This document shows, in pieces, positions 33,648 through 64,000 of a stretch of DNA of 64,000 bases. Location of the stretch: IMG/VR virus record IMGVR_UViG_3300002595_000019, positions 19,513-83,512 of that record; one strand, 5' to 3'. Below the pieces are notes generated by a model. The model saw nothing but the letters and a program-made list of their open reading frames with translations. It had not been told where the DNA came from and made no database searches. Every line of letters starts with the position of its first letter. The stretch's first letter is position 1. This DNA is from a virus. Position numbers and translations under genes: made by a program.

Positions 33648-33782
33648 GCTCGTAAAATCAGCAAAGACATTCAGCCTATCCTATCGAGCCACGTTGAGAC
33701 GTGCGTACTACTATATAATAAAGAATATTACGAGAAGGAAGTTAAGGGGAAAGTGAAGGCTGAAGTGGTGACGGAAGTATAA
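33591..33782 (+). pseudogene. rlmD: Displaced 3' end of 23S rRNA m5U methyltransferase gene, interrupted by att scar
   Basis: MDMFPQT-[~25 aa insert]-HVETCVLL matches the RlmD/RumA C-terminal VDMFPHT.HVE.V.LL motif. Confidence 0.7.
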
Positions 33783-37371: not shown

Positions 37372-37571
37372 AATTTGGTATTAGAAAACCAAGTTTAAAG
37401 AAACGAATATCTGCAAGAACAAGCATAAAGAGACAAGTTGTCCATAGAGCAGGATTAAAAATGCCTAGAGGTTGGGGATGGCTTAGAAATCCAAAGAAAT
37501 ATGCGTACAATAAGGTATATAACAAAACATCTTTTGATATTTTTAAATTGATTAAAAAACTTTTTAAATAA
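37368..37571 (+). CDS. Small very basic conserved hypothetical protein
   Basis: Coupled ATGA start; [32 protein letters not shown]. Confidence 0.7.
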
Positions 37572-37596
37572 TTGGAGTTCGAAAGGGGGAAGGAAC

Positions 37597-40500: not shown

Positions 40501-40860
40501 GAAGAGGAGAAGGATTTAGGGTTAAATGAAGATGAGATTGCTTTCTATGACGCATTAACAGCCGATGAGGTTGTGAAAGAGTTTATGGAGGATGAGACCT
40601 TAAAAAAGATTGCTCAAGAATTAACTTTTGCTATTAAAAATAACATTACCATTGACTGGAGTGTAAGAAAAAGTGCTCAAGCAGGCATGAGAAGGATCAT
40701 AAAAAGACTTCTTAAAAAATATGATTATCCACCAGAACAGGCAAAAAATGCACTTAAAGTTGTTATGAGACAGGCAGAAAAGATGTGTGGCAATGTTAAC
40801 GTAGAAGACATCCAGTATGATAAAGTAGCGGAAGAAAAGCAAGATTACATTTTGAGATAG
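37597..40860 (+). CDS. hsdR: Type I R-M restriction subunit
   Basis: [36 protein letters not shown]. Confidence 0.95.
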
Positions 40861-49001: not shown

Positions 49002-49033
49002 ATATAAAAAATATTAAAATGGAGGTCAGAACT

Positions 49034-49690
49034 ATGAAGTTAGTTTTTATTACGGACAATAATTTAAAGAATGACCCATATACTACAAGCAAAATAATTG
49101 CTGAATATGGTGGGCAAGAACACAGAGCAGTGAGACAATTAATCAGAACACATGAGAAATCATTAAGAGAATTTGGTAAGGTTTCGACATTTGAAATGCA
49201 GAAACCTGAAAATGAACTCGGTGGTAGACCAGAAAAGTATTACAAGCTGAATGAGGAACAGGCAACTTTTCTTATTACACTTATGAAAAATACTCCGCAA
49301 GTTGTTCTATTCAAAAAGGAACTGGTCAAACAATTCTTTACTATGAGACAGGAACTTGAAAAACGCAGATTGGAAAGAGAAACTGAATTGAAGAGTAGAA
49401 AAGAGTTGACTGAAAAAATAAAATTTCATCTTGGAAATGATAATTTCAAATTTATAGCATTTACTCAGATGATATATAAGGTTTTATTCGGGAAGGATGC
49501 ACAGGGTCTCAGAGATACTTTTGGTATAAACGATAAGAAAAAGACACCAAAGGATTTTATGTCTTCACAAGATGTGGAGAAAATTAGAAAAGCAGAAGAT
49601 AAAGCATTAACCATGCTTGAACTAGGATATGATTACCAGCAAGTCAGAGAACAGCTGGATAAAATATTCAATGAAAAAAATATTGCATAA
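49034..49690 (+). CDS. Rha family phage regulatory protein
   Basis: TTSKIIAE....H..V..LI, YYKLNEEQATFLITLMKNT..V..FK..LV..F..MR. Confidence 0.85.
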   Translation: MKLVFITDNNLKNDPYTTSKIIAEYGGQEHRAVRQLIRTHEKSLREFGKVSTFEMQKPENELGGRPEKYYKLNEEQATFLITLMKNTPQVVLFKKELVKQFFTMRQELEKRRLERETELKSRKELTEKIKFHLGNDNFKFIAFTQMIYKVLFGKDAQGLRDTFGINDKKKTPKDFMSSQDVEKIRKAEDKALTMLELGYDYQQVREQLDKIFNEKNIA

Positions 49691-49734: not shown

Positions 49735-50988
49735 ATGGAATTTAGGAAAATTAAAATATCAGATTTAAAACACGCAGAATATAACCCGAGAGTTGACTTG
49801 AAGCCTGGAGATAAAGAATTCGAGAAAATAAAGAGCAGCATTACTGAATTCGGATATTGTGAGCCGATTATAGTAAATAGTGATATGACCATTATTGGCG
49901 GTCATCAGAGGAGTAAGGTTCTGAAAGAACTGGGATATGATGAAATAGACTGTGTGGTAATTGAGGTTGATAAGACTAAAGAGAAAGCTTTGAATATTGC
50001 TCTGAATAAAATTACAGGCGAATGGGATCTGTCAGCACTGGCTTATTTGCTGGATGAATTAAAAACTGAGAATTATAATATTGAGCTTACTGGTGTTGAT
50101 TTTGCTGAGGCAGAAAAACTATGGGATGAATATATGCCAAAAGATGAACAGCAGGAGGAAGAAGAAATTCCTGAAGTGCCAGAAGAACCAGTTGTTCAAT
50201 CAGGAGATATTATCCTGCTTGGCAAACATAGACTGATATGTGGTGATGCCACAAAGGCTGAAGATTTAAAGAAACTCATGGATGGGAAAAAGGCAAAACT
50301 TACGGTAACAGACCCTCCATATGGAATAGCTTATGTAGGGAAAACGGAAGATGCGTTGACAATACAAAATGATAACTTGAGTGATGAAGAATTTTATAAT
50401 TTCCTGCTTAATGCGTTTAAGAGAGTTTATGAAATATCCGATGACGGAGCAAGTATATATGTATTTCATGCAGATGCTAAAGGATTGATATTTAGGAAAG
50501 CATTTGTTGATTCTGGCTTTAAGCATTCTCAATGTTGCATATGGGTAAAGAATACCTTTGTCATGGGAAGACAGCCGTATCAGTGGCAACATGAGCCTGC
50601 ACTATTCGGTTGGAAACCAACAGGTTCTCATTATTGGAATGGTGACAGAAAGCAGAGTACCATCTGGAACTTTGATAAACCGAGGGTAAATGATGTGCAT
50701 CCTACAATGAAGCCGATTCCACTGATTGAGTACATAATAAAAAATTCCAGTAAATATGGTGATATTATTGTAGATACATTTCTTGGCAGTGGAACTACAT
50801 TAATTGCTGCCGATAAGACAGATAGGATTTGTTATGGCTCTGAACTTGACCCGAAATATTGTCAGGTTATTATTGAACGTTGGATAAATTATAAGGATGG
50901 AATCAACGGTGATGATGTAATTATTGAAAGAGACAGGCAGCAATATAAATACTCGGACTTAAAGCGTGAGCAAGTAGCGGTCTCATAA
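49735..50988 (+). CDS. ParB-N fused amino DNA methyltransferase
   Basis: YNPR, GGHQR, DPPY, HPTMKP, FLGSGTT; homologue of 486-1751. Confidence 0.9.
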   Translation: MEFRKIKISDLKHAEYNPRVDLKPGDKEFEKIKSSITEFGYCEPIIVNSDMTIIGGHQRSKVLKELGYDEIDCVVIEVDKTKEKALNIALNKITGEWDLSALAYLLDELKTENYNIELTGVDFAEAEKLWDEYMPKDEQQEEEEIPEVPEEPVVQSGDIILLGKHRLICGDATKAEDLKKLMDGKKAKLTVTDPPYGIAYVGKTEDALTIQNDNLSDEEFYNFLLNAFKRVYEISDDGASIYVFHADAKGLIFRKAFVDSGFKHSQCCIWVKNTFVMGRQPYQWQHEPALFGWKPTGSHYWNGDRKQSTIWNFDKPRVNDVHPTMKPIPLIEYIIKNSSKYGDIIVDTFLGSGTTLIAADKTDRICYGSELDPKYCQVIIERWINYKDGINGDDVIIERDRQQYKYSDLKREQVAVS

Positions 50989-51131
50989 AGTGAGCAATAA
51001 TAAATTCTCATCTTATATGACAGATTCCTGCTCATTTTATTTTACCGAAAGCCCCTCATTATACTTGATTTAATGTGCTTTCTGAGTGATTAATGTAGTA
51101 CACCAAAATCATGAAATGGAGGGTTTTTATT

Positions 51132-51893
51132 ATGGAGAGAAAAGAAATCATTAAGGCTTTAGGGGAACACTTTGGGGTAGAGTCAAAGTATATGGGAGTA
51201 CCGAGTTTTGCTTATCAGGTTCAAACAACAAATGAAACTTACACAATTGACAGAGCAGGAAAGATAACAACTTCTGAAGGGATTGAAGTGGAACTTGAAA
51301 GCATATTAAACGGAGGTAAGGTGGAAGAGACAAGTGAACCCACTGCCGAGACAATAAGCATTGAGGTTGCAGTTCCGATGGAAGGTCATACTGGAAGCAC
51401 TTTAAAAAATCTGGTGAATATGGTTTATAGCAAACAGGCACTTATAAAAAAATCACTCGGAATTACTGGCAATATTATCGAAACTGAATTTTGTAAAGGC
51501 ATCAATGAAGGTAAAATTGAATCACTGGATGATTTCAGGGTAGCCATTGAGAGTGTTGGAGAGAAACATTGTCCAGGGATTGCTTTTGATTTTAATAATA
51601 GCACCGTTACTTTTAAGTTTTTGGAAGGAGAAGCAAGTCCTGAAAAGGTTCAAGCTTATACTCAACTGGTAGCACTATTGAATCAAAATGCTAAAACCTT
51701 AAAGCATGCTTTAGCTAAGTCAAAGGATACAGATAACGATAAGTTTACCTTCCGAGTTTTTCTTATAAGGCTCGGCATGGTAGGGGATGAATACAAGGTT
51801 GCAAGGAAAGTGCTGCTGGAGAACCTTGGAGGAAACTCGGCTTTCCGAAGCGGTAAAAAGCCTGAAAAGAATATAATTGCAGATGCTGAATAG
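51132..51893 (+). CDS. Conserved phage protein (virulence-related protein family)
   Basis: NDKFTFRVFLIRLG..GDEYK..RKVLLENLGGNSAF; homologue of 3660-4379. Confidence 0.75.
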   Translation: MERKEIIKALGEHFGVESKYMGVPSFAYQVQTTNETYTIDRAGKITTSEGIEVELESILNGGKVEETSEPTAETISIEVAVPMEGHTGSTLKNLVNMVYSKQALIKKSLGITGNIIETEFCKGINEGKIESLDDFRVAIESVGEKHCPGIAFDFNNSTVTFKFLEGEASPEKVQAYTQLVALLNQNAKTLKHALAKSKDTDNDKFTFRVFLIRLGMVGDEYKVARKVLLENLGGNSAFRSGKKPEKNIIADAE

Positions 51894-52326: not shown

Positions 52327-52887
52327 ATGGGTGGTAGCAGAAAAGGAATTCCGAATAAAACAAGCCGATATGATTCGGACATATTACCAAGACTGTCTGA
52401 CATAAAGGAATGGCTGATGCAGGGAGATACCGTAAGGGAGATTTGTAAGAAACTTGCTATTTCCCCCGACTCTTGGTATCGTTATTGTAAAGAGCATGAA
52501 ACACTCTCTGAACTTGTAACTATGGGCAGGAGCGTGTTATGTAATGAAGTTGAAAAATCATTATTGAAGCTTTGTACTGGGTATGAATATGAAGAACTCA
52601 AGACCATTGTTGAAGAGGATAAAAATGGGAAAAAGAGAACCAAGATTGAAAAGATAAAGCGACACCAGCCACCATCGGCTCAAGCCATATCATTCTTCTT
52701 AAGAAATCGTATGCCAGAGGAATGGTCGGATAAGAAGGAGCTTATATTGGATACGAGCCAAAATGAAGAGGCGAGGAAGCAGTTGTTCCTGCAAATGGTG
52801 AATGGCGAGATGGATGCAGATACAGAAGAGAATGATGCCGATTGCAAAGAGGAGCAGCAAAGACAAGTTGAAGAAGATATGCAATAA
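52327..52887 (+). CDS. Putative terminase small subunit
   Basis: N-terminal HTH (EICKKLAIS..SWYRY), VEKSLLK.C.GYEYEE, PP...AI.FFL.NR.PEEW.DK. Confidence 0.75.
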   Translation: MGGSRKGIPNKTSRYDSDILPRLSDIKEWLMQGDTVREICKKLAISPDSWYRYCKEHETLSELVTMGRSVLCNEVEKSLLKLCTGYEYEELKTIVEEDKNGKKRTKIEKIKRHQPPSAQAISFFLRNRMPEEWSDKKELILDTSQNEEARKQLFLQMVNGEMDADTEENDADCKEEQQRQVEEDMQ

Positions 52888-52958
52888 TCTTATGTCGTCA
52901 GTTTTTACCGAGATAAATGCCGATTTTATATAAAAGAATGCCCTGAAAAAGCCTGATT

Positions 52959-52986
52959 ACAATGCATAATTAGGGTTATGTATTCA
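52959..52986. other. dif-like tyrosine-recombinase core site
   Basis: ACAATGCATAA-TTAGGG-TTATGTATTCA: 11-6-11 layout; arms resemble E. coli dif GGTGCGCATAA-N6-TTATGTTAAAT. Confidence 0.6.
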
Positions 52987-52987
52987 G

Positions 52988-53016
52988 TTGACTTAGGGGC
53001 AGTACAGAGGTAACAT
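52988..53016 (+). promoter_or_regulatory. Sigma-A promoter of the tyrosine recombinase
   Basis: TTGACT-17-TAACAT. Confidence 0.7.
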
Positions 53017-53048
53017 GGACACACCAAATGAAGGAAGGGTGTGTCTAT

Positions 53049-53897
53049 ATGCTTGATTTAAGCGGTTTTGAAGTATATTTAAAGAGCCAAGAACGCAGTA
53101 AGAATACGAATAGCTGCTATATTCGGGACAGTAAGGCTTTTATTGAATGGTATGGCAGCAGGACGGATTGTGGTCTTGATAAACTAATTGAACTGGATGT
53201 AATTGAATATAAGAAGCACTTACTTAGCACCAGCGAATCGGTGGTTACAGCTAATAGGAAGATTGCCAGCATCAATGCCTTTTGCAAATGGCTCTATGAA
53301 AGCGGAACAACTCCTGAAGAAGTTTCGATTAAAGCAGTAAAGAATCGGGATGCTCGCCAATATAAAGGCTTGCAGGAAAGGGACTTGAGGAGACTACGAG
53401 CCGAGATACACAGAAACAGGAATAAAATGCATATCTGCATCATTGAAATACTGCTTGGCACAGGACTTCGGGTAAGTGAACTTTGCAATATAAAGCTTAA
53501 GGATATTGATATATCCGAACGCAAAGGTTCTATAAAGGTTATTGGAAAAGGGAATGTTAACAGAACGCTACCATTAAATAAGGATGTCAGAAAAGCAATC
53601 CAAGAATATCTTGCAGTAAGACCAAAGGATGACAGTGACTTCCTATTAATAGGGCAGCGTGGAGCTTTGAAGAGGAATGCTATCAACCTTATTCTTGAGA
53701 AGTATGGTAAGAGAGTTTCAGTTGAAGTGACACCGCATAGCTTAAGGCATACGCTTGGATATAAGCTGGTCAAGGAAGGAACAGCAATTACTACCATTCA
53801 GCAGATACTCGGTCACGATAACATAATGACCACAAGCCTTTACACAGTCACAACCGAGCAAGATATGAATAATTCCTTAGAAGCACTGGAGTGGTAA
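53049..53897 (+). CDS. XerD-like tyrosine recombinase
   Basis: TGLRVSEL, HSLRH, LGH..I.TT.LY. Confidence 0.93.
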   Translation: MLDLSGFEVYLKSQERSKNTNSCYIRDSKAFIEWYGSRTDCGLDKLIELDVIEYKKHLLSTSESVVTANRKIASINAFCKWLYESGTTPEEVSIKAVKNRDARQYKGLQERDLRRLRAEIHRNRNKMHICIIEILLGTGLRVSELCNIKLKDIDISERKGSIKVIGKGNVNRTLPLNKDVRKAIQEYLAVRPKDDSDFLLIGQRGALKRNAINLILEKYGKRVSVEVTPHSLRHTLGYKLVKEGTAITTIQQILGHDNIMTTSLYTVTTEQDMNNSLEALEW

Positions 53898-53916
53898 GCA
53901 AGCCCACTCTTTTTTT
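53889..53916 (+). terminator. Terminator overlapping recombinase stop
   Basis: GAGTGG / CCACTC + T7. Confidence 0.65.
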
Positions 53917-54067
53917 ATGCACCTTTCCCAATGGGAGGGGTGCTTCTATCTGTAAAATTGCCCCTACAGCAAATGCTGTGAAAATTTTTTTGACAAATTT
54001 TTATTTTCATTGATGCTAAACGTCATTATATGATACAATAATATGGTGAATTTTGGGGGTGATTGAT

Positions 54068-54847
54068 TTGTGTAAATCTGCTATCGTCTTTATGGATTAC
54101 GATAATGTATGGATAACATGTGAAAAGAACTATAATGTAGATGTCTTTGTAAAAAATTTTATTGATAAAATCTACGATTTTATGGGTGAAAAAGGTTATA
54201 AAGTAAATGAATTTATAGCCTATGGTAATTATGACAATGGGAAAATGTCAAGAGATAAACATCAAACAAAACTTCAAACTTTAGGTGTACAAACTCGCCA
54301 TTGTATGAATGGTAAAGACTCTGCTGACATTGCAATAGTATGTGATGCATTAGAAAAATTATTTTTAACATCTACAGATAATGATACATATATTATAGTA
54401 TCATGTGATAAAGACATTACTCCACTGATTAATAAAATTAAGTCTCAAGGTAAAGAAGTTGTATTAGTAACCTTTGCAGTAAACATTGATTGGGATGTAA
54501 TGATGAACTATGGCGATTTTCACTTTTGGTTTGAAGAAATTATTGATATACCGTTTACAGAACCAAATCTAAAGCCATTGTTGGATTGTGAAGTCTTTTG
54601 TTCGGAGCTAGGTAAAGAGGTCATCAAAAGACAAACAGATATTAATTATTCACTATTTTCAAATGGAATACAAAAAAAATATAAGACATGCGAAAGTGAA
54701 ATTGATGAATTTAGGGATAAGTTGATTGAAGAAGGTAAAATTGAAATATACAATTATGATTTCAGAGGTAAAACATTCCATGATGGAATAAGACTTATTA
54801 CTGATGGAAATACTACTAATGGTTCTCAAATTACTGATGAAGTTTAG
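54068..54847 (+). CDS. NYN-domain (PIN-like) protein
   Basis: VFMDYDN, KDSADIAIVCD, VSCDKDI.PL...K..GK.V; extended -10 TG-A-TACAAT upstream. Confidence 0.85.
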   Translation: MCKSAIVFMDYDNVWITCEKNYNVDVFVKNFIDKIYDFMGEKGYKVNEFIAYGNYDNGKMSRDKHQTKLQTLGVQTRHCMNGKDSADIAIVCDALEKLFLTSTDNDTYIIVSCDKDITPLINKIKSQGKEVVLVTFAVNIDWDVMMNYGDFHFWFEEIIDIPFTEPNLKPLLDCEVFCSELGKEVIKRQTDINYSLFSNGIQKKYKTCESEIDEFRDKLIEEGKIEIYNYDFRGKTFHDGIRLITDGNTTNGSQITDEV

Positions 54848-54869
54848 AAAACAAAAATATCATTTTTTC

Positions 54870-54898
54870 TTGACGGAGATGCCTTATAGTATTATAAT
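54870..54898 (+). promoter_or_regulatory. Sigma-A promoter between NYN gene and terL
   Basis: TTGACG-17-TATAAT. Confidence 0.8.
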
Positions 54899-54908
54899 AA
54901 AATCAAAG

Positions 54909-54964
54909 AGAAAACTCTAAAACAAGAAAACTTTATAAAAGAAAACTTTAATGTAGAAAACCTT
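54909..54964 (+). repeat. Four AGAAAACYYT repeats at 15-16 bp spacing
   Basis: Starts at 54909, 54925, 54940, 54955. Confidence 0.8.
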
Positions 54965-55027
54965 TAAACGAGAGAGGGTGTAAGAAAAACTTGCATCCTC
55001 TCTATTATTATATGGAGAGGTGATGCG

Positions 55028-56629
55028 ATGCAAGCACAACAAGACCATCACCGCCAAAATCTCCTGTTAAAAGAATATCTGAACAAATATTTCTCTCCGA
55101 ACAAGATAGAAGAACTTGTCGGGGAGTTTTCATTTTCGGAGCTTCGCAGGTTGCTTGGCGAGATGGATATAGAATTTTTTGCCTTGTGTTACTTCCCGAA
55201 ATACTTTGATAGAAAGTTCGGACAGTTTCATAAGGAGTTATTTGAAGAACTAAAATATATGCTGGACAATAAAGGGTTGATTGAGGCTTTCGGATTGCCA
55301 AGAGAACATGGCAAAAGCACAATCAACTCTTTTTTATTTCCGCTGTATTCAACACTATACGGTAAATCCTGCTTTACGTTGATAATATCAGCAACAGAGC
55401 AGATTGCACTCCCTTTTCTTGATATGATTAAGGATGAACTTGAAAACAACCAATTATTGATTGAGGACTTCGGCATTTATAAAGGAAACCGTTGGAACAA
55501 TAATGAAATATGGATTCGTGGCAGAGGCTGTTTGGATGCCTGTATAATGATACGTGGAATTGATGGCTCATTGAGGGGTATCCACTTTAAGCAATATCGT
55601 CCCCAGCTTGTTCTTTTAGATGACTTATTAAAAGACGATACAGCAAAGTCGGAAACCAAACGTGAGCAAGTAAAAAGCACATTTACCGATGTAGTAATAC
55701 CGATTGGAACTAGAGATACAAATATTCTTGTTGTCGGAACTGTGCTCCATGAGGAAGACCTTATGGCTGATTTACTGAAAGGTAAAATTCCAGGAGTGAG
55801 AAGTATAAAGAAAGCTTCTATAGTTAATTGGGCAGAAAGGGATGACCTCTGGAGTGAATGGGAAGCAAAATATAATAACCTTCAGGACTTAGATAGAATT
55901 GAATCTGCTAAGTCCTTTTTTTATGACCATCAGGAAGAAATGCTGGAAGGAACAGAAATTCTATGGTCTGAATATCTGGATTATTATTATCTTATGTGTA
56001 AGAAACAGGCTATGGGAGATAAGTCATTCTATAAGGAAATGCAGAATGATCCACGCAGTACCGATGATTATATTTTCCAGAATATATCCTTTTGGGAGAA
56101 GCTGCCTGAATATGAGGAGCTTGAAGTCATTATGTACATTGACCCTGCAATAAAGGCAGGAAAGAGAAATGACTATTCTGCTATCACAATTCTTGGACAG
56201 CACAGGAAAACCAATCAAATGTATGTAATTGACGGTTCTATTTATAAGCTTCTGCCTGATGACCTGTTTTCAGTTGTAATAGAAAAATTGCAGTATTACC
56301 CTGTTGAAAAAATAGGATTTGAAGCGACACAGGCTCAGAGTTATATGAAGCAGAAATTTGAAGAGCAGCTATGGCAGAATAAAATTTATGCTCCCGTTGA
56401 GGAAGTTGTTGCAAAGGGACAGAAGCATGAGAGAATTATTACTTTAGAACCAGATATTAAGAAAGGACATATACTGTTCAATTCTTCCAATGTGGGTTAT
56501 AATAATCAAGTAAAAGATTATAACAAGGGTGCAAAGCATGATGATGCTCCTGATAGCCTATATGGTGCTGTACAATTGGTAAAGGGAGTACAGAGGATTA
56601 GGTTTTTTGACAGGAATTTATTGTTTTAA
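55028..56629 (+). CDS. Terminase large subunit (Terminase_6-like)
   Basis: PREHGKST, LLDDL, YIDPA, HDDAPDSL. Confidence 0.93.
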   Translation: MQAQQDHHRQNLLLKEYLNKYFSPNKIEELVGEFSFSELRRLLGEMDIEFFALCYFPKYFDRKFGQFHKELFEELKYMLDNKGLIEAFGLPREHGKSTINSFLFPLYSTLYGKSCFTLIISATEQIALPFLDMIKDELENNQLLIEDFGIYKGNRWNNNEIWIRGRGCLDACIMIRGIDGSLRGIHFKQYRPQLVLLDDLLKDDTAKSETKREQVKSTFTDVVIPIGTRDTNILVVGTVLHEEDLMADLLKGKIPGVRSIKKASIVNWAERDDLWSEWEAKYNNLQDLDRIESAKSFFYDHQEEMLEGTEILWSEYLDYYYLMCKKQAMGDKSFYKEMQNDPRSTDDYIFQNISFWEKLPEYEELEVIMYIDPAIKAGKRNDYSAITILGQHRKTNQMYVIDGSIYKLLPDDLFSVVIEKLQYYPVEKIGFEATQAQSYMKQKFEEQLWQNKIYAPVEEVVAKGQKHERIITLEPDIKKGHILFNSSNVGYNNQVKDYNKGAKHDDAPDSLYGAVQLVKGVQRIRFFDRNLLF

Positions 56630-56658
56630 AGTAAAGTATTTATTGGGGGTCTTGGGTT

Positions 56659-57471
56659 ATGAATACGGTCTTTGTTAGCATACTAACAAGCTTGATTGTG
56701 AGTTTAATAACATTCACACTTGGAATGAAATCTGGTAAAAATCAAGCCGACAGGCAACGATTAAAAGAACTATATAAAAATATAACCGTCCATTTTCAAA
56801 ATCTGAAGAAAGGTCTGGAAAGCCATACTCCAAAAACATGGAGAAGCTTTTCTAATAAATCAGGTAATTCAGACCCCCTTATAAAAAGAATGATAAAAAA
56901 TGGTGACATAATTGAAATAAATGCAAAGATGTCTAAAAGAGCGGAAGAGACTGAAAAACAGGCACTTGCTTTGGGTTGGAGATTTTATGATATTTATAAG
57001 GATTTACATGCTATATCGATTGAAATAATTAAAAAGTATGCAACTATATATCACGAATCTACGGGAAACAATTATTGTACTAAAAAATCTGAGAACAAAA
57101 TTGGGCGACCTTTTTGGGAATGTGGGTTTGGAATTCTCCTAGATAAAAAGCTAATTGATGAAAAAATATCATATTTAAATGATAGTCCCAACAATGGTTT
57201 CAATTTTATTCACACTGAAGACGGTAGGATATTGTACTCGATAACAATTTATCCTGATGACTTAACGGACATTTCCATTAAGGATTTACTCTATGAGATT
57301 AATAGTATATCAATTGAAAATATAGAAAATGCAAGTAGTTTATTAAAACAGAAAGTGGAAATATGTAAAGATATTAATAAAATTATCAAAAAGAGTATGA
57401 GAAGAGCGAGAGACCCACATACATTCATTGAAACCATTGGGGGTGCTTTCCTAGATATCTTCAAAATCTAA
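56659..57471 (+). CDS. Moron-like hypothetical protein with N-terminal membrane anchor
   Basis: FVSILTSLIVSLITFTLG helix; AT-rich; own terminator. Confidence 0.7.
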   Translation: MNTVFVSILTSLIVSLITFTLGMKSGKNQADRQRLKELYKNITVHFQNLKKGLESHTPKTWRSFSNKSGNSDPLIKRMIKNGDIIEINAKMSKRAEETEKQALALGWRFYDIYKDLHAISIEIIKKYATIYHESTGNNYCTKKSENKIGRPFWECGFGILLDKKLIDEKISYLNDSPNNGFNFIHTEDGRILYSITIYPDDLTDISIKDLLYEINSISIENIENASSLLKQKVEICKDINKIIKKSMRRARDPHTFIETIGGAFLDIFKI

Positions 57472-57478
57472 TATTTCG

Positions 57479-57505
57479 ATAGCTCTCATTATGAGGGCTA
57501 TTTTT
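57479..57505 (+). terminator. Terminator after moron
   Basis: ATAGCTCTCA / TGAGGGCTAT + TTTT. Confidence 0.8.
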
Positions 57506-57534
57506 ATGCGTATTTTTAGAAAGGAAGTGATACT

Positions 57535-58830
57535 TTGCAGATAACCGAAAGTCTTATAAAGCAGTGCTTGACTGAGTTGGAGAGTAACTCAAGTATCAAG
57601 CAGAAGTATAAAGATTATTATGAGGGAGACCACAGCATACTTAAGGATTATGACATGCAGGACAGCAGAAGTAACCGAAAGCTTATATTCAACTTCCCTC
57701 GTAAGTTTGTAGATAATGAAACAGGCTACCTTCTCGGAAAGCCTGTTAATTTTGTATCCAAAAGCGATGATAAAAGCATCATTGACTGCATTGACAGGAA
57801 CAGCAGCCATTGGGACAAGGAGCATAATATTTCTCTACGAAAGCAAAGCGAAATTTTCGGTGAGAGCTATGAGTTAAATTATGTCAATACCGATGGAGAA
57901 TTCTGTGCAACAATTCTGACACCATTGGAGTGCTATGTGTTAGAGGATGGGACAGCTGAAAGGAATGTTCTGCTGGCAATACACAAATTCAAAAGAAGGT
58001 TTGATGATATTGAATACCTTGATGTTTATACTGATGCAGAAATACTACATTATAAGCTGGTAGAGGATTCTGAAATTGAACTTGTCGGAAAACACAATCA
58101 TATATTCGGAAGAGTTCCTGTAATTGTGTGTCCTGCCAACAGCGAACGTAAAAGCGGATTTGAAGATTTGATAAGCCTTTTTGACTCATACAATGCTTTG
58201 AATTCGGACTTGGTCAATGAAATCGCCGACCACCGCAATGCTTATCTCATTATTGAAAATGCAAAAATTGAAGAAGAGGATTTGCTCAAGATGAAGCAGA
58301 TGGGTATCATCCAAGTACCAAAGGGTGGAGCGGTAAAGTGGCTTACAAAAGATATTAATGATTCCTTTGTAAAAAATGAACTTGAGAATATTGAACGTAA
58401 AATCTATGACATGATGGATGAAGTAAATTTCAATGAGAACTGGGCATCCAATACATCTTCGCTGGCTCTTAGGAATAAGCTGCTAAACCTTGAAAACAGA
58501 GTATCAATGCGACAGGCTTTTATGGAAAAAGTAATCAAAGAAAGGCTGAAGAATCTGTTTATATATATCCGCAAGAAAGAAGGAAAGGTCTTTGATTATA
58601 GGGATGTGGCAGTTAAGTTCACCAGAAACCTTCCTACAGACCTTGTTGGACTGGCAGATGTAATTGTAAAACTTAAAGATGTCTGCTCACAGGAAACACT
58701 GCTTACATTGCTGCCATTCATTGAGAATCCAGCAGTAGAGTTGCAGAAATATTTAAAGGAAAAGGCTAATTCCGTTGAAGGGAGTGATTTAGAAAAAACA
58801 TCAATTGAAACCGCAGTAATAAGAAACTAA
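57535..58830 (+). CDS. Portal protein, SPP1 gp6-like
   Basis: YYEGDH, NFPRKFVD...GYLLGKPV, GRVPV, DSYN...SD..N, SSLALR.KL, FTRNLP. Confidence 0.92.
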   Translation: MQITESLIKQCLTELESNSSIKQKYKDYYEGDHSILKDYDMQDSRSNRKLIFNFPRKFVDNETGYLLGKPVNFVSKSDDKSIIDCIDRNSSHWDKEHNISLRKQSEIFGESYELNYVNTDGEFCATILTPLECYVLEDGTAERNVLLAIHKFKRRFDDIEYLDVYTDAEILHYKLVEDSEIELVGKHNHIFGRVPVIVCPANSERKSGFEDLISLFDSYNALNSDLVNEIADHRNAYLIIENAKIEEEDLLKMKQMGIIQVPKGGAVKWLTKDINDSFVKNELENIERKIYDMMDEVNFNENWASNTSSLALRNKLLNLENRVSMRQAFMEKVIKERLKNLFIYIRKKEGKVFDYRDVAVKFTRNLPTDLVGLADVIVKLKDVCSQETLLTLLPFIENPAVELQKYLKEKANSVEGSDLEKTSIETAVIRN

Positions 58831-58891
58831 AAATATGCGTTCTTAGTTCCTTTAGAGTTAAGAGGGCGAAATAATAAGGAGGATTTTTATT

Positions 58892-59476
58892 ATGACATTT
58901 GAAGAAGTAAAAGAGTTTTTAGAAAGTGAAGCTGGAAAAGCTTCAGAAGTAACAGCATATTTGCAGGGGTTAAATCCATTGACTGTTGCAAGGGTGCAGG
59001 AATATATCGATAAAACGCCTGAAGGAAAATCATGGGCTGATTCTGTAAAGGATAAGCATTTACAGAAAGGACTTGAGACATGGAAAGCAAATAATCTGGA
59101 ATCACTTCTCAACGATGAAATTAAGAAGAGATTTCCTGAAAAGGATGAAAAGGAACTTGAGGTTGAAAAGCTGAGAGCCGAGATTGAAAAGATGAAGCAG
59201 GAAAAGCTGAGAGAAACTCTCACTAATAAAGCCATCAAAATAGCAAATGAGAAGAATCTGCCGATTGAATTGGTGGATTTTTTTATTGGTGCAGATGATC
59301 AAGCCACTGTTTCAAATGTTAAGGTTCTGGAGGATACCTTTGGGCAGTACGTACAGAAAATGGTTGAGCAAAGGCTCAAGGGTGATGGCTATGTCCCACC
59401 AAAGGATAATGATGGAAGGCAGAGCAACTTAGAAAGTCTGTCTATGGAAGAATATATCAAAGCGAGAAGCAAATAA
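58892..59476 (+). CDS. Capsid scaffolding protein (DUF4355-like)
   Basis: KGLETWK, LPIELVDFF, RLKGDGYVP; between portal and capsid. Confidence 0.8.
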   Translation: MTFEEVKEFLESEAGKASEVTAYLQGLNPLTVARVQEYIDKTPEGKSWADSVKDKHLQKGLETWKANNLESLLNDEIKKRFPEKDEKELEVEKLRAEIEKMKQEKLRETLTNKAIKIANEKNLPIELVDFFIGADDQATVSNVKVLEDTFGQYVQKMVEQRLKGDGYVPPKDNDGRQSNLESLSMEEYIKARSK

Positions 59477-59502
59477 AAATTGAAAGGATATGGTGATTTA
59501 TT

Positions 59503-60627
59503 ATGGGAAACACAATTTTAACTCCATCTATTATAGCAAAGGAAGCGTTGATGCAATTAAGAAATAATACGGTAATGGCAAGTCTGGTACATAGGGATTA
59601 TTCACAGGAATTTGTTGCTGGAGTGGGTAATACAGTTACAATCAGAAAACCAGCTACTTTTGAAGCACAGGAATTCAATAGAAGTACAGGTATTCAAATT
59701 CAGGATGCTACTGAAGGTTCTGAATCTGTGGTATTGGATAAGCTTTTGGATGTATCCTTTGAGGTAACATCTGAACAGCTTACTATGGATATAAGGGATT
59801 TCAGTGAACAATTGCTGATTCCAGCAATGCAGGGTTTTGCTAACAAAATTGACCAGTATTTATTGGGTCTCTATAATGAGATTCCTTTTAACTTCGGTAC
59901 AGCAGGAAGCACTCCTTCCGAAATTAGCGATATAACTGGTGCAAGGAAAGTATTAAATGATAATAAAGTACCTTTTGCTAACAGAAATCTTGTTGTTGAT
60001 ACTGCTGCGGAAGATAAATTTCTGCAATTGGCTACATTCCATGAAGCAGATAAAGTAGGTGATGATGGTACTGCATTAAGAGAAGCTTCTCTTGGTAGAA
60101 AGTTCGGATTCAATATCTTCATGGATCAGAATGTTAAGAAGCATACCAAGGGTACTTTGACAGGAGACGAAGGGACAATCAAAGTAAAAGGTGCTGTCAG
60201 TGCTGGTGCAACTCAAATTGTGATTGACGGTGCAAACCTTACTGGAACCCTTGTCAAAGGTGATGTTATAGCAATTAGCGGTAAATCTTATGTAGTAACC
60301 GAAAATGCAACAGCTGCAGCCAACGAAATTGCTGTAAAACTTTATCCTGAAACAACGGAAATTGCAAATGATACAGAAGTTGCTATTGTATCAACACATA
60401 CAGCAAATCTTGCATTCCATAAAAATGCTTTTGCATTGGTAAGCAGACCGCTGGCATTGCCAAGAGGGTTGAGTTCCGAGCAGAAGGCAATTGTAAACTA
60501 TGATGGATTTGGTTTAAGAGTTATTTATGATTACAATAGCCAGTACAAGAAGGATGTTATTTCAATTGATATGCTTTGCGGAGTAAAGACTTTAAGTCCA
60601 GAACTTGCTTGTAGACTATTGGGATAA
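59503..60627 (+). CDS. Major capsid protein, P22 coat family
   Basis: MGNTILTPSIIAKEAL..L.N, GNTVTIRKP, NLAFHKNAFALV.RPL..P, SIDMLCGVK. Confidence 0.9.
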   Translation: MGNTILTPSIIAKEALMQLRNNTVMASLVHRDYSQEFVAGVGNTVTIRKPATFEAQEFNRSTGIQIQDATEGSESVVLDKLLDVSFEVTSEQLTMDIRDFSEQLLIPAMQGFANKIDQYLLGLYNEIPFNFGTAGSTPSEISDITGARKVLNDNKVPFANRNLVVDTAAEDKFLQLATFHEADKVGDDGTALREASLGRKFGFNIFMDQNVKKHTKGTLTGDEGTIKVKGAVSAGATQIVIDGANLTGTLVKGDVIAISGKSYVVTENATAAANEIAVKLYPETTEIANDTEVAIVSTHTANLAFHKNAFALVSRPLALPRGLSSEQKAIVNYDGFGLRVIYDYNSQYKKDVISIDMLCGVKTLSPELACRLLG

Positions 60628-60678
60628 TAATTAAAACTGGGGGTGTACCGTTTGGTGCATCCCCTTTTAAATTTAAGG

Positions 60679-60909
60679 ATGGTGAGGTTTTTGAAATGTC
60701 CATTTTGCAATATTGAATACAATTCTCCCGAAACATTTAATGTCCATATTCAAGGTTGCTACTATAAGGAGTGCCCTATACCAGTACAAACAGACTTTGA
60801 ATTACTGACGTATCAGGAATTGAAGGATATGGCTCTTTCAAAGGGTATTAAGGCAGGAAGTATGAAAAAGACAGAAATTATCAAAGCACTAAAAGAAACG
60901 GAGGTATGA
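60679..60909 (+). CDS. Small protein with C2HC zinc finger and HeH/Rho-N-like C-terminus
   Basis: CPFC-x12-H-x3-C; LTYQELKDMA..KGI..SMKK.EII.AL; start uncertain. Confidence 0.6.
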   Translation: MVRFLKCPFCNIEYNSPETFNVHIQGCYYKECPIPVQTDFELLTYQELKDMALSKGIKAGSMKKTEIIKALKETEV

Positions 60910-60913
60910 TATC

Positions 60914-61219
60914 ATGCTTGAGACCGTAAAAATGTTACTTGGGATAGATGTAGCAGATACATCAAAGGATATGATTTTGAATCACTTTATAAATCAGGCA
61001 ATAAGACTTGCATTGTCTTATTGCAATGTATACGAATTGTCTGCCGAATATGATGGAGCAGTTGCTGATTTGGCTGTATTTCTTTATAAAAACAAGGATA
61101 GTGTCGGCTATAAGCAGAAGACAGAGGGAGAGAGAAGTGTAACATATGAAGGTGGAGGAATTCCAGAGAATATAAAATCAGCATTGCCGCTACCTAAAAT
61201 TAAGGTCGGGTGTGAGTGA
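60914..61219 (+). CDS. Head-tail connector (gp6/gp15-like)
   Basis: VKMLLGI..KDMILNHFI, KTEGERSVTY. Confidence 0.8.
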   Translation: MLETVKMLLGIDVADTSKDMILNHFINQAIRLALSYCNVYELSAEYDGAVADLAVFLYKNKDSVGYKQKTEGERSVTYEGGGIPENIKSALPLPKIKVGCE

Positions 61220-61494
61220 TGTTTAATGATACATTAGTAAAAATATATTCAAGCCCTAATTGGCTTTCTTATATTAAATCCATCTATGCAGATTTTCAGC
61301 CTTATACCAAAAGCATAGTATTTGAGGATGGCTTCCAAATTGATATCACAAACAGGATATTTTGTGATATTGATAGTTCAATTAATAAAAACAGCTACAT
61401 GGAAATTGATAATGAAAAGTATAAAGTTATGGATTTGAAGAAATGGGATAATTATTTGGAAGTTTACCTGTACAAGTTAAAAAGGCAGGTGTAG
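61216..61494 (+). CDS. Putative head-closure-like protein
   Basis: Coupled; C-terminal EIDNEKYKV.D.K.WD.Y.EV.L beta-barrel pattern. Confidence 0.55.
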   Translation: MMFNDTLVKIYSSPNWLSYIKSIYADFQPYTKSIVFEDGFQIDITNRIFCDIDSSINKNSYMEIDNEKYKVMDLKKWDNYLEVYLYKLKRQV

Positions 61495-61500
61495 GTTATT

Positions 61501-62652
61501 ATGCAGGATATAGATGAAATGATAGATTTTTTTCTTTATGAAAAAGGTGAATATATCAAAATCAATGGTGTAGACCAAATTGGAATAATAATGGATGCAG
61601 TTGACAAACTGACTTATTATGATGATAAGATTATTCGCTGCAAATGCCAGATAAAAACAGGTGATATTGTTGAATATAACAATTTAAAATATATCATTAT
61701 CAGCCAGATTGATAAGGAAGAAAACTCGTTTAAAGCAAGGATTAGAAAATGCAGCTACAGAATAGCTTTTAACTGGTCTGGTAATATCAAATGGTTCGAC
61801 TGTATTGAAGAAAGTAAAGTTTTTGATGTTTCAACGGGGACATATATATCTGTAGCTTCAGGGAATATTTATATAACCGTACAGTACAATGCGGATACAA
61901 GAAATATCGCTTTGAATAACAGATTCTATGTTACCAACCAACCTTTCAAAATTACTGGCATTGATAAATCTCAAGAAGGACTTATAAAATTTAACTGTGC
62001 ATTGGATTCTATAAGTACATCCTATGACGATGTTGAAAATAACATAGCTGACAGATGGCGTTATGAAACAGGTCATACCTATACATTAACAATAAATAAC
62101 GGAGACACAGCAAATGTACTTGTTAACAATGTTTTTCAGTTAAATGTGTCGGCAACTGACAATGGCTCTGCAATTGCTAATCCTGTGATTACCTATACGA
62201 GCAGTGATCCTAATGTTGTAAGTGTTGACAACACAGGAAAAGTAATGGGTATTTCGCTTGGGCAGGCTTTGATAACTGCAAAACTTACTTACCATGATAC
62301 GATTTCAGATTCCATTACAATAACATCAGTAGAGACATTAACGCATAGTTATACAATAAGCATTTCTGGCAGCAGTACTATAAAAATAGGGCAGAGCCAG
62401 TCTTATGTAGCACATATTTATGACAATGGTGCGGAAGTTTTTGATAAATCTGTAGTTTGGAGTGTTAGAAATCAAGATGGAACTACTTCCCCAGCTTATT
62501 CCACAATTACAGCAAGTACAGGAAATAGTGCCACAATTAAAGCCAATAGTAGCAGTACTTATATTAATAGATATACTGTTCTAAAAGCTACACTGTCAGA
62601 TGATTCGACAGTATTTAAAGAATTCTCAGTACAATTAAAATCACTATTCTAA
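61501..62652 (+). CDS. Virion protein with C-terminal Ig-like (Big_2) domains
   Basis: ITYTSSDPNVVSVDNTGKVMGISLGQALITA; second Ser/Thr-rich beta domain. Confidence 0.8.
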   Translation: MQDIDEMIDFFLYEKGEYIKINGVDQIGIIMDAVDKLTYYDDKIIRCKCQIKTGDIVEYNNLKYIIISQIDKEENSFKARIRKCSYRIAFNWSGNIKWFDCIEESKVFDVSTGTYISVASGNIYITVQYNADTRNIALNNRFYVTNQPFKITGIDKSQEGLIKFNCALDSISTSYDDVENNIADRWRYETGHTYTLTINNGDTANVLVNNVFQLNVSATDNGSAIANPVITYTSSDPNVVSVDNTGKVMGISLGQALITAKLTYHDTISDSITITSVETLTHSYTISISGSSTIKIGQSQSYVAHIYDNGAEVFDKSVVWSVRNQDGTTSPAYSTITASTGNSATIKANSSSTYINRYTVLKATLSDDSTVFKEFSVQLKSLF

Positions 62653-62658
62653 ATCAAT

Positions 62659-62686
62659 GGCAGGCTTGAGGGCTTGCCTTTATTTT
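62659..62686 (+). terminator. Terminator closing the head operon
   Basis: GGCAGGC-TTGAGG-GCTTGCC-TTTATTTT. Confidence 0.75.
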
Positions 62687-62952: not shown

Positions 62953-64000
62953 ATGGCAAATGCAATAAAAAAGGTTCAAGTATTACAGCCAATTCAAAGA
63001 CAGGAGAATTCTGAAAACGCAATAAACACAGCAAAGAGGAGAGTTTGTGCATACTGTAGGGTGAGCACTGATTCCGATGAACAAATGGAGAGCTACAATG
63101 CTCAGGTTAGTGAATACAAGAAAAAGATTGCTGAAAATCCAGAGTGGAAATTCGTTGACATATATGCCGATGCTGGAATAAGCGGAACAAATGTTAAGCA
63201 CAGACTTGCATTTAATAGAATGATTAAAGATTGCCAAAACGGGTTGATAGACCTTGTTATTACAAAGTCCATTTCCAGATTTGCAAGAAATACAGTGGAT
63301 TGTCTGAAGCATGTAAGGGAATTGAAAAATATTGGAGTTGAAGTATTCTTCGAAAAAGAAAATATATATTCCTTTGACTCAAAAATGGAATTGGTTCTGA
63401 CCATGCTAAGTTCTATAGCCCAAGAGGAAAGCCGAAATATTTCTGAGAACACAAAATGGGGACTAAGAAAACGCTTCAGGGATGGGGTTACAATTTGCAA
63501 TACAGAAAGGTTTCTTGGTTATGATAAAGATGAAAATGGCAATCTTGTGATTAATGTGGAGCAAGCTGAAATAGTAAGAAGGATTTTCAGAGAATACCTC
63601 GATGGTAAAGGGTATGCTGCCATAGCGAGAGGACTTGAAGCCGATGGAATTAAAACCATAGCTGGTAAATCAAAATGGTGGGATTCCAGCATTAGAGGAA
63701 TTCTTGAAAATGAAAAGTATTATGGAGAGCTTCTTTTGCAAAAAACTGTGACAGTTGATTACCTGACCAAGAAAAGAGTTGATAATGATAACCTTGAACC
63801 AATGTACAGAATTGAAAATAATCACGAGCCGATTATATCGAAGGAAATGTTTGAACTTGTTCAGCAGGAACGAAAGAGACGCTTTGAAATTACAAGGGGC
63901 AGAAATGAGGACAGAAGAAAGTATACCAATAAATATGGTTTCAGTGGAAAGTTGTACTGTGAAAAATGCGGAAAAACTTTGAAACGCAGACACTGGAACA
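62953..64000 (+). CDS. Large serine recombinase (3' truncated by window; absent from ORF track)
   Basis: [37 protein letters not shown]; SD AAGGAG. Confidence 0.93.
   Translation, partial: MANAIKKVQVLQPIQRQENSENAINTAKRRVCAYCRVSTDSDEQMESYNAQVSEYKKKIAENPEWKFVDIYADAGISGTNVKHRLAFNRMIKDCQNGLIDLVITKSISRFARNTVDCLKHVRELKNIGVEVFFEKENIYSFDSKMELVLTMLSSIAQEESRNISENTKWGLRKRFRDGVTICNTERFLGYDKDENGNLVINVEQAEIVRRIFREYLDGKGYAAIARGLEADGIKTIAGKSKWWDSSIRGILENEKYYGELLLQKTVTVDYLTKKRVDNDNLEPMYRIENNHEPIISKEMFELVQQERKRRFEITRGRNEDRRKYTNKYGFSGKLYCEKCGKTLKRRHWN

What the first reader, a model, noticed from the sequence alone, without database searches (positions are those of the whole stretch)
52327..62686. Head operon ends at a terminator and passes straight to the integration module
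Seen: TerS, TerL, portal, scaffold, coat, Zn-finger protein, connector, closure-like protein and Ig protein, then a terminator (62659), SHOCT and recombinase, only ~60 bp after the last structural gene. In prophage 1 the equivalent interval holds ~13 kb of tail and lysis genes. No gene remnants or broken ORFs mark a deletion. Inference: the tailless state is an evolved design rather than decay. The connector type differs from prophage 1, so the tail donor, if any, may be another phage.
Basis: partly seen in the sequence, partly recalled or inferred. Interest (0 to 1): 0.8.

Follow-up and report, generated by a model that had tools for sequence, protein, structure and literature searches.

The report
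Tailless head-making mobile element family
This is a 34-kb mobile element of Clostridia that keeps a complete, well-preserved kit for building and filling virus heads but has no tail genes, most likely because it borrows tails from other phages, as some known phage parasites of gut bacteria do.

Summary
TerS, TerL, portal, scaffold, P22-type coat, zinc-finger protein, adaptor, a 92-aa stopper-fold protein and a 383-aa Ig protein are followed by a terminator (62659-62678). SHOCT starts 60 bp after the Ig stop, then a large serine recombinase.

The element is bounded by rlmD-derived att sites (window about 33,685 to 67,821; 34.1 kb). No tail or lysis gene was detected in it.

Sixteen related elements from at least four families of Clostridia reach the junction, and none has a tail operon. 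Six carry holin and endolysin there instead. Head and neck genes evolve under strong purifying selection (dN/dS 0.02-0.16). The neck genes are swapped as a module between otherwise close elements.

The two genes after the adaptor both have the head-closure (stopper) fold, so the operon ends at the head's tail-docking face.

Taillessness is therefore an evolved, old design, not decay. The element works like capsid-forming PICIs but fails their membership tests: serine integrase, P22-type coat with scaffold, 34 kb, Clostridia. It looks like an independent origin. Dependence on a helper phage's tail is inferred, and no helper was identified. An overlapping finding of this scan (e1-5357684) covers the same stretch; the scan has no record of this family on other DNA.

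The parts
33594..33770 (+). attL: 3' end of rlmD (DMFPQT ... HVETCVLLYNKEYYEK...*). Homology with the C. acetireducens element starts at 33685. The core CCACGTTGAG is shared with attR.
33958..34551 (+). HTH regulator (phrog_36540, HTH_3)
34572..40860 (+). Type I restriction-modification cargo (HsdM, HsdS, HsdR)
42208..45708 (+). 1166-aa protein with no Pfam or PHROG match here. Homologues are 98% identical in the C. acetireducens element, 84% in G001 and 72% in L018.
45998..48196 (+). 732-aa helicase-like protein (ResIII/DEAD, YonV-like by Atlas features and structure); not a tail protein
49019..49690 (+). Rha-family regulator
49735..50988 (+). ParB-N plus DNA methyltransferase fusion; conserved in the family
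51111..51893 (+). Amidoligase-like protein (phrog_2443)
52327..52887 (+). Small terminase
53028..53897 (+). Tyrosine recombinase between terS and terL; present in every relative whose fetched DNA covers the terS-terL interval (48-89% identity)
54053..54847 (+). NYN-domain protein (variable insert, not conserved in relatives)
55028..56629 (+). Large terminase
56659..57471 (+). 270-aa protein with a hydrophobic N-terminus and no family match; found only in the closest relatives (L012, L023, L027)
57535..58830 (+). SPP1-type portal
58892..59476 (+). Scaffolding protein (DUF4355)
59503..60627 (+). P22-type major coat protein
60639..60664 (+). Strong hairpin plus T-run just after the coat gene (-21.7 kcal/mol, z -5.2)
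60643..60909 (+). Small Cys/His zinc-finger protein with a Rho_N/HeH-like C-terminus; the true start is probably ATG 60679
60914..61219 (+). gp6-like head-tail adaptor (Phage_connect_1, phrog_132)
61216..61494 (+). Head-closure (stopper) protein by fold: matches lambda neck chain 8k37_M, SPP1 connector chain 7z4w_1, R4C and T1 stopper complexes, and XkdH (Z 10.1)
61501..62652 (+). Terminal neck protein. Residues 1-86 have the stopper/neck fold (Pam3 neck 8hdr_A, Z 11.2, rmsd 3.1, 81 aligned). Residues 87-190 are a beta domain. Residues 191-383 are two Big_2 Ig domains. It is fused to the 92-aa protein in L021 and has only the N-terminal part in L015.
62659..62678 (+). Intrinsic terminator that ends the late operon; an equivalent hairpin plus T-run is present in L004, L005, L008, L009 and L012
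62713..62865 (+). Small SHOCT-domain protein that precedes the recombinase, as in prophage 1
62953..64000 (+). Large serine recombinase (537 aa, ends at window 64566). It is followed outside the window by an ABC-3C defence system and by attR at about window 67821.

Best explanation
The finding is the late operon of a 34.1-kb integrative element inserted by a large serine recombinase into the 3' end of rlmD.

What the element encodes:
- everything needed to build a P22-type head, package its own DNA (TerS/TerL) and close the portal with adaptor, stopper and an Ig-bearing terminal neck ring
- no tail tube, tape measure, baseplate or fibre
- in this clade, no lysis genes

The most likely life cycle is that of a capsid-forming phage satellite. 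After induction it makes DNA-filled, tail-less heads. These are released by a co-infecting or co-resident phage's lysis (or, in a sister clade, by the element's own holin and endolysin). They become infectious by joining ready-made long tails of a helper phage through the neck proteins.

Shown here: the gene content and its boundaries, the conservation of the tailless layout, purifying selection, the stopper fold of the last two neck proteins, and the modular exchange of the neck genes.

Inferred: particle production, release, tail capture and the helper's identity.
For: 1. Bounded element with no tail or lysis gene detected.
- attL lies at window about 33685. There an intact 487-aa rlmD of C. 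acetireducens runs into 92.6% identical element DNA.
- attR is an orphan rlmD end (THVECVVLMSRVEK*) at L001:7334. The same kind of orphan end lies right of the recombinase in L004, L005 and L019.
- All larger ORFs in between were scanned with Pfam and/or PHROGs (the ABC-3C cargo genes with Pfam only). Four small ORFs (u240, u117, u69, u270) have no informative match and Zn88 only weak domain hits: about 780 aa in all, against about 10 kb of tail genes in prophage 1.

2. The layout TerS - Tyr recombinase - TerL - portal - scaffold - coat - adaptor - stopper - Ig protein - recombinase recurs in all 15 distinct relatives that reach the junction. Coat identity ranges from 91% down to 64%. Hosts include Clostridium, Desulfotruncus, Desulfotomaculum, Christensenella and Ca. 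Limiplasma. None has a tail operon.

3. Six relatives have holin and endolysin directly after the Ig gene, and still no tail.

4. dN/dS against the closest relatives is 0.025-0.16 for TerL, portal, scaffold, coat, adaptor, stopper and Ig protein, at dS 0.6-1.7.

5. Contigs from three independent digester studies bridge the Ig-SHOCT-recombinase junction with 1-7 mismatches.

6. The tailless elements form one clade in the coat tree (support 88/91). A coat relative at 53% identity, L030 (not in the tree, its coat being cut by the contig end), is a siphophage with adaptor, Neck1, major tail protein and tape measure.

7. Folds: the 92-aa protein has the stopper fold. Residues 1-86 of the Ig protein match the same neck chains (Z 11.2). 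In L021 the two are one ORF.

8. Neck mosaicism. C. acetireducens has coat 88%, TerL 91% and the 1166-aa polymerase-like protein 98% identical, but adaptor 60%, stopper 44% and Ig protein 30%. Desulfotruncus has coat 77% but neck proteins 71-74%. cf-PICIs show the same pattern, and there adaptor and connector decide which tails fit (bioRxiv 10.1101/2025.02.11.637232).

9. Genes after the recombinase in relatives are defence-like or host genes, not tails. The tape-measure family PF10145 is absent from five whole family records and lies inside no element in five host genomes.
Against: - No helper phage, tail-capture event, particle or packaged DNA has been observed; every functional step is inference.
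- At 34 kb the element is more than twice the median cf-PICI, and no recognisable helper-sensing module (Stl/AlpA-type) was found.
- A sister clade has its own lysis genes, which described cf-PICIs lack. That fits a more autonomous life style.
- C. acetireducens shows no PF10145 tape measure anywhere in its draft genome, so at least one host has no obvious resident tail donor. PF10145 does not cover all tape measures.
- Four small ORFs have no informative match and a fifth only weak domain hits.
Confidence: 0.68

Rival explanations
1. A defective prophage: a recent deletion removed tail and lysis genes, and the rest is decaying.
For: The organisation mirrors prophage 1 (ParB-methylase, amidoligase, terminase, head genes, terminator, SHOCT, serine recombinase) minus 12.5 kb. 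CheckV rates five related IMG/VR records as 32-82% complete.
Against: The same junction occurs in 15 divergent relatives that form one coat clade. All head and neck ORFs are intact with dN/dS 0.02-0.16 at dS near 1. The 60-bp junction holds no remnant. The neck module is exchanged, not eroded.
Confidence: 0.04
2. An autonomous virus with a minimal or unrecognised adsorption device. The adaptor, the stopper and the Ig-bearing ring themselves act as a very short tail, and the particle infects without a helper.
For: The terminal protein carries two surface-type Big_2 domains. Six relatives encode their own holin and endolysin right after it. The coat is P22-type, a type common in short-tailed phages. 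C. acetireducens shows no PF10145 tape measure. Some complete phage records with a related coat (L024, L029, L040) also lack PF10145.
Against: No nozzle, tail knob, fibre, spike, ejection protein or wall-degrading virion enzyme was found. The N-terminal domain matches about 110-aa neck/stopper chains of long-tailed phages, not podovirus nozzles. In L015 the protein lacks the Ig domains altogether. A coat relative at 53% identity, the closest one whose downstream genes were examined, is a siphophage. The window's clade has no lysis genes.
Confidence: 0.1
3. A host-serving, gene-transfer-agent-like or split system whose tail or lysis functions sit at another chromosomal locus, as in the two-operon FpGTA of Faecalibacterium.
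For: GTA-like head clusters without visible tails exist in Clostridia, with structural genes at a second locus (PMC12946183).
Against: The element has its own recombinase, defined att sites in rlmD and variable cargo. It is patchily present in different genera, and in one digester sample (X9) its contigs lie at about 17x against roughly 190-340x for the sequence at the record's right end, past attR. It encodes its own regulators and helicase. No tape measure lies near it except as part of separate complete prophages.
Confidence: 0.04

Closest known systems
[quoted passage not shown] EcCIEDL933, KpCIDSM30104; SatelliteFinder class cfPICI)
   Same: An integrative element that encodes TerS, TerL, portal, major capsid protein, head-tail adaptor and connector but no tail. 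The operon ends with neck proteins. The neck genes vary as a module between otherwise similar elements. It carries defence cargo. The predicted product is a tail-less, DNA-filled head that needs foreign tails.
   Different: - Large serine recombinase in place of a tyrosine integrase
- No AlpA/MerR-Stl regulator and no primase-replicase module found
- P22-type coat plus scaffold in place of an HK97 capsid plus protease
- 34 kb against a median of 14 kb
- Hosts are Clostridia, whereas known monoderm cf-PICIs are in Lactobacillaceae, Enterococcaceae, Bacillaceae and Streptococcaceae (PMC10085698)
- Some members carry holin and endolysin
- A third neck protein with Ig domains
SPbeta-like phages and Clostridium phage c-st
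   Same: Large serine recombinase integration. A YonV-like helicase and a gene read as a YonO-type polymerase. The only phage-database homologues of the Ig neck protein are c-st CST161 and its D-1873 counterpart (24-25% identity over 89% of the query), and CST161 lies directly after the YonA/YomZ head-neck genes.
   Different: Those are complete tailed phages; the two whole-genome records are 186 kb (c-st) and, from outside knowledge, about 134 kb (SPbeta). Their terminase, portal and capsid genes show no BLAST similarity to this element.
Temperate siphophages with related coat proteins (IMG/VR contig behind L030) and the neighbouring prophage 1
   Same: L030 has a coat 53% identical and also carries a tyrosine recombinase in its structural module. 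Prophage 1 shares the overall order and the terminator-SHOCT-serine recombinase end.
   Different: Both have a full neck-tail module (tail completion, terminator, major tail protein, tape measure and so on), and prophage 1 also has holin and amidase.

Membership tests
cf-PICI (capsid-forming PICI) | Own packaging and capsid genes: TerS, TerL, portal, major capsid protein, head-tail adaptor and connector | tested here: met
   Pfam and PHROG hits; stopper fold of the 92-aa protein
cf-PICI (capsid-forming PICI) | No tail and no holin genes within the element | tested here: met
   The bounded element (window 33685-67821) has none by Pfam and/or PHROGs. Six relatives do carry a holin.
cf-PICI (capsid-forming PICI) | PICI-type left arm: tyrosine integrase, AlpA/MerR/Stl-type regulator, primase-replicase | tested here: not met
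   Integration is by a large serine recombinase at the right end. The left arm holds an HTH, type I R-M, a polymerase-like gene, a helicase and Rha. The only tyrosine recombinase sits between terS and terL.
cf-PICI (capsid-forming PICI) | HK97-type capsid with prohead protease (packaging operon of HK97 origin) | tested here: not met
   The coat is PF11651 P22_CoatProtein (2e-110) with a DUF4355 scaffold and no protease
cf-PICI (capsid-forming PICI) | Small genome (median 14 kb; elements over 30 kb discarded as outliers in PMC10085698) | tested here: not met
   34.1 kb between attL and attR
cf-PICI (capsid-forming PICI) | Transfer depends on helper-phage tails | not testable with these tools
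   Needs induction and tail-complementation experiments
Intact temperate long-tailed phage | Tail tube, tape measure, distal tail/baseplate proteins and a lysis cassette | tested here: not met
   Absent from the element. Present in prophage 1 and, for the tail genes, in the outgroup L030.
Gene transfer agent | Host-fixed locus without own integrase or att sites, vertically inherited | tested here: not met
   Own serine recombinase; attL/attR in rlmD; patchy presence and variable cargo
Head-closure / stopper proteins (SPP1 gp16, lambda gpFII class) | Small beta-barrel fold matching solved stopper chains, encoded directly after the adaptor gene | tested here: met
   The 92-aa protein matches 8k37_M (E 2e-4, TM 0.64), 7z4w_1 (TM 0.69), 8gtf_M and 3f3b_A (Z 10.1). 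Residues 1-86 of the Ig protein match 8hdr_A (Z 11.2) and 7kjk_A4 (Z 10.7). Sequence-level membership was not detectable.

The most novel reading that the evidence does not exclude
The particles are infectious on their own. The adaptor, the stopper and the Ig-bearing stopper-fold ring form a minimal adsorption and ejection device. That would make the family, in particular the clade with its own holin and endolysin, an autonomous virus with a virion form not yet described, and not a satellite.
Probability: 0.08. Interest if true: 0.9.

Novelty: new variant of a known kind. Interest (0 to 1): 0.62.

Why it matters
Tail-less capsid-forming satellites were described only in 2023. They are known from Proteobacteria and a few families of Bacilli, all with HK97-type heads, tyrosine integrases and genomes of about 14 kb.

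This family would be a further, independent origin of the same strategy:
- It occurs in strictly anaerobic Clostridia: biogas and digester communities, Christensenella, Desulfotomaculum relatives.
- It is built from a different capsid lineage and a different integrase.
- It is more than twice the size, and some members carry their own polymerase-like gene or their own lysis genes.

That would show that "keep the head, drop the tail" is a recurrent end point of phage evolution and not a peculiarity of one lineage. It would also give two cultured strains in which to test it.

Standard prophage callers score such elements as incomplete phages (CheckV 32-82% for five related records), so they are probably under-counted carriers of defence systems.

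Tried and rejected
- Complex prediction with the 92-aa stopper, residues 1-190 of the Ig protein and prophage 1's tail terminator as partner returned "no answer" (score 0.00). It counts neither for nor against prophage 1 as tail donor.
- Sequence searches of the Ig protein, the 732-aa protein and the 270-aa protein against PDB sequences gave only Ig-domain hits or nothing.
- Foldseek on the whole Ig-protein model was swamped by Ig-domain proteins. Only the domain-wise VIA search showed the neck fold.
- rlmD family PF05958 was not found in the record. The rlmD body lies outside it, and only the 3' fragments are present.
- No tRNA or Rfam family lies near the right end.
- No RNA holder was listed among the sequencing runs, so expression could not be examined.
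- No direct repeat of 14 bp or more links the attL region with the rest of the contig. The att sites were found through the rlmD peptide motif instead.
- Head genes of phage c-st showed no similarity to the element apart from CST161 and a Rha-like regulator.
- The prophage next to the element in the Christensenella MAG is only distantly related to prophage 1, so there is no evidence for a shared helper lineage.
- A literature search for this family (satellite, serine recombinase, Clostridia, YonO, tail-less capsids) found no description of it. The library lacks most subscription-journal papers.

Full report
**Where the window lies.** The window is part of a 96-kb IMG/VR provirus record. It holds a complete 49%-GC siphophage ("prophage 1") and then, from about 33.7 kb, a 34%-GC element. 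The finding is the right-hand half of that element.

**The observation.**
- TerS 52327-52887
- TerL 55028-56629
- SPP1-type portal 57535-58830
- DUF4355 scaffold 58892-59476
- P22-type coat 59503-60627 (PF11651, 2e-110)
- a Cys/His zinc-finger protein with a Rho_N-like tail 60643-60909
- a gp6-like adaptor 60914-61219
- a 92-aa protein 61216-61494
- a 383-aa Big_2 protein 61501-62652

The Ig gene stops at 62652. An 8-bp hairpin with a T-run lies at 62659-62678 (-12.8 kcal/mol, z -2.1). The SHOCT gene most likely starts at 62713, behind AAGGAG. The 537-aa large serine recombinase starts at 62953.

Prophage 1 ends the same way, with a terminator, SHOCT and a serine recombinase. Between head closure and that end it carries 12.5 kb of tail completion, terminator, major tail protein, chaperone, tape measure, Dit, Tal, two more proteins, holin and amidase.

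**Nothing beyond the window rescues the tail.** Downstream of the recombinase lie an ABC-3C defence system (SMEK, MC6, DUF2326) and a LlaJI-type restriction system. There are no tail or lysis genes.

**The element's ends can be fixed.**
- Left end. In Clostridium acetireducens an intact 487-aa rlmD gene runs straight into DNA that is 92.6% identical to the window from position 33685 onward. Its last residues (HVETCVLLYNKEYYEK...) are those seen in the window.
- Right end. An orphan rlmD end (THVECVVLMSRVEK*) lies at L001:7334, which is window about 67,821. The same kind of orphan end lies right of the recombinase in three relatives.
- The two ends share the core CCACGTTGAG.

The element is therefore 34.1 kb. 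It is integrated in the rlmD 3' end, in tandem with prophage 1, and it includes the ABC-3C cargo but not the LlaJI system. Depth in an independent metagenome agrees: about 17x for the element against 108x for the LlaJI block.

Within these bounds four small ORFs have no informative family match and the 88-aa zinc-finger protein only weak domain hits; together they come to about 780 aa. The 732-aa protein is a YonV-like helicase. I did not test that reading.

**Relatives.** Searches with the coat protein in species-representative genomes and in IMG/VR found 19 distinct family members. Coat identity to the window ranges from 96% to 64%.
- Every relative whose fetched DNA covers the region shows the order TerS, tyrosine recombinase, TerL, portal, scaffold, coat, adaptor, 92-aa protein, Ig protein.
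- In the 15 that reach the junction, nine go straight to the serine recombinase, seven of them through a recognisable SHOCT gene. Six carry a holin, an endolysin and an HTH protein and then (five of them) two serine recombinases.
- None has a tail operon.
- Hosts include Clostridium, Desulfotruncus, Desulfotomaculum, Christensenella and Ca. Limiplasma.
- Genes after the recombinase are defence-like (Cap4 nuclease, EVE-HNH, an FtsH-like protease with a UvrD helicase, a MORC-type ATPase) or plain host genes such as thyX.
- The tape-measure family PF10145 is absent from five whole family records. In five host genomes it lies inside no element.
- Near-identical copies occur in biogas, digester and manure metagenomes from 15 studies. 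Contigs from three independent studies bridge the Ig-SHOCT-recombinase junction with 1-7 mismatches.

**Not decay.** Against the closest relatives, dN/dS is as follows, at dS 0.6-1.7:

| Protein | dN/dS |
|---|---|
| TerL | 0.025-0.027 |
| portal | 0.023-0.034 |
| scaffold | 0.05-0.07 |
| coat | 0.03-0.05 |
| adaptor | 0.06-0.12 |
| 92-aa protein | 0.11-0.16 |
| Ig protein | 0.056-0.057 |

In a coat tree the tailless elements form one clade (support 88/91). The lysis-bearing ones form one well-supported subclade (99/98). A coat relative at 53% identity, L030, has adaptor, Neck1, major tail protein, chaperone and a 696-aa tape measure; its coat is cut by the contig end, so it is not in the tree. 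Taillessness thus has a single old origin from a long-tailed ancestor and has been maintained since.

**What the last genes are.** AlphaFold models built on 16-sequence alignments are confident (pLDDT 87 and 86).
- The 92-aa protein matches head-closure/stopper chains: lambda neck 8k37_M, SPP1 connector chain 7z4w_1, the R4C and T1 stopper-terminator complexes, the SaPI1 neck, and XkdH at Z 10.1.
- Residues 1-86 of the Ig protein match the same neck chains (Pam3 8hdr_A, Z 11.2, rmsd 3.1, 81 residues; XM1 7kjk_A4, Z 10.7).
- Residues 191-383 of the Ig protein are two Big_2 domains.
- In L021 the two proteins are one ORF. In L015 the Ig protein has only the N-terminal part.
- The only phage-database homologues are CST161 of Clostridium phage c-st and its D-1873 counterpart; CST161 lies right after the YonA/YomZ head-neck genes.

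The operon therefore ends with adaptor, stopper and a second stopper-fold ring that displays Ig domains. That is the head's tail-docking face and nothing further.

**Neck exchange.** The C. acetireducens element is 92-94% identical in DNA over the left arm. Its polymerase-like protein is 98%, TerL 91% and coat 88% identical, but its adaptor, stopper and Ig protein are only 60, 44 and 30% identical. The Desulfotruncus element has a more distant coat (77%) but neck proteins at 71-74%. Swapping of adaptor and connector genes between otherwise similar elements is what cf-PICIs show, and there it sets which phage tails can be captured.

**Comparison with the known.** Capsid-forming PICIs are integrative satellites that make their own heads, lack tail and holin genes, release tail-less heads and capture foreign tails. 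This element works like one on every point that sequence can show. It fails the family's descent-defining features: serine instead of tyrosine integrase, no PICI-type left arm, P22-type coat with scaffold instead of HK97 capsid with protease, 34 kb instead of about 14 kb, and Clostridia as hosts. Capsid and TerL trees indicate that cf-PICI packaging modules already arose three times from phages. This looks like a further independent origin, hence "new variant of a known kind".

**Rivals.**
- Recent deletion and decay is excluded for practical purposes.
- An autonomous virus with a minimal neck-tail cannot be excluded. The lysis-bearing clade, the surface-type Ig domains and the P22-type coat speak for it. 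The missing nozzle, fibre, ejection and wall-degrading functions speak against it, as do the long-tailed-phage type of the neck folds and the Ig-less variant.
- A GTA-like split system is unlikely, given the element's own recombinase, its att sites and its patchy distribution.

**The tail donor is unknown.**
- Prophage 1's adaptor is only 22% identical to the element's, and its head-closure protein shows no similarity.
- In the Christensenella MAG a complete HK97-type siphophage prophage lies about 1 kb past the element's recombinases on the other strand. It is only distantly related to prophage 1.
- C. acetireducens shows no PF10145 tape measure at all.

Noticed in passing
window 53028-53897; L030:2126-2731: A tyrosine recombinase sits between terS and terL in every family member whose fetched DNA covers that interval (48-89% identity). 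The tailed outgroup phage L030 also has a tyrosine recombinase inside its structural module, between coat and adaptor. It is a core gene, not an insert, and its role is unknown.
   Followed up: partly
L021:11508-12923: The 92-aa stopper and the Ig neck protein are fused into one 471-aa ORF in this relative. In L015 the Ig protein is cut down to its N-terminal part of about 190 aa.
   Followed up: partly
L001:7047-7588 (window about 67530-68075): The stretch just right of attR holds three copies of AGGGTTGAG. In four metagenomes it stands at 220-1600x depth against 2-28x in the adjacent bins, with many loose ends. It is a multi-copy repeat of unknown kind.
   Followed up: no
window 36073-37371 versus L081 (C. 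acetireducens): In the type I restriction system, HsdM and HsdR are 97-99% identical between the two elements but the specificity subunit HsdS is only 63% identical. Target recognition was swapped in an otherwise identical system.
   Followed up: no
L083:1783-16356 (Christensenella MAG, minus strand): A complete HK97-type siphophage prophage (TerL, portal, protease, capsid, major tail protein, tape measure, fibre, lysin) lies about 1 kb past the element's recombinases and converges on it. Together with prophage 1 in the window, this is a second case where the tailless element abuts a full tailed prophage.
   Followed up: partly
L001:7962-12975 (window about 68450-73460): The LlaJI-type restriction block (two methylases, an AAA_5 protein, the LlaJI nuclease) lies outside attR. 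In one digester metagenome it stands at 108x against 17x for the element, so it belongs to the host or to another island.
   Followed up: partly
window 1-31000 versus 31000-64000: Prophage 1 has 49% G+C. The genes between the two elements, the tailless element and the downstream DNA have 33-37%. The tailed prophage looks compositionally foreign to this host.
   Followed up: no
window 60639-60664: A strong hairpin with a T-run (-21.7 kcal/mol, z -5.2) lies directly after the coat gene, inside the late operon. It overlaps the annotated GTG start of the zinc-finger ORF, so that gene probably starts at ATG 60679.
   Followed up: partly
L004 versus L012: Two elements with nearly the same head genes (coat 91% identical to the window in both) carry serine recombinases only 49% and 82% identical to the window's. 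For L004, rlmD end motifs lie at both element ends (left end seen in L082); L012's integration site was not examined. The integrase can be exchanged as well.
   Followed up: partly
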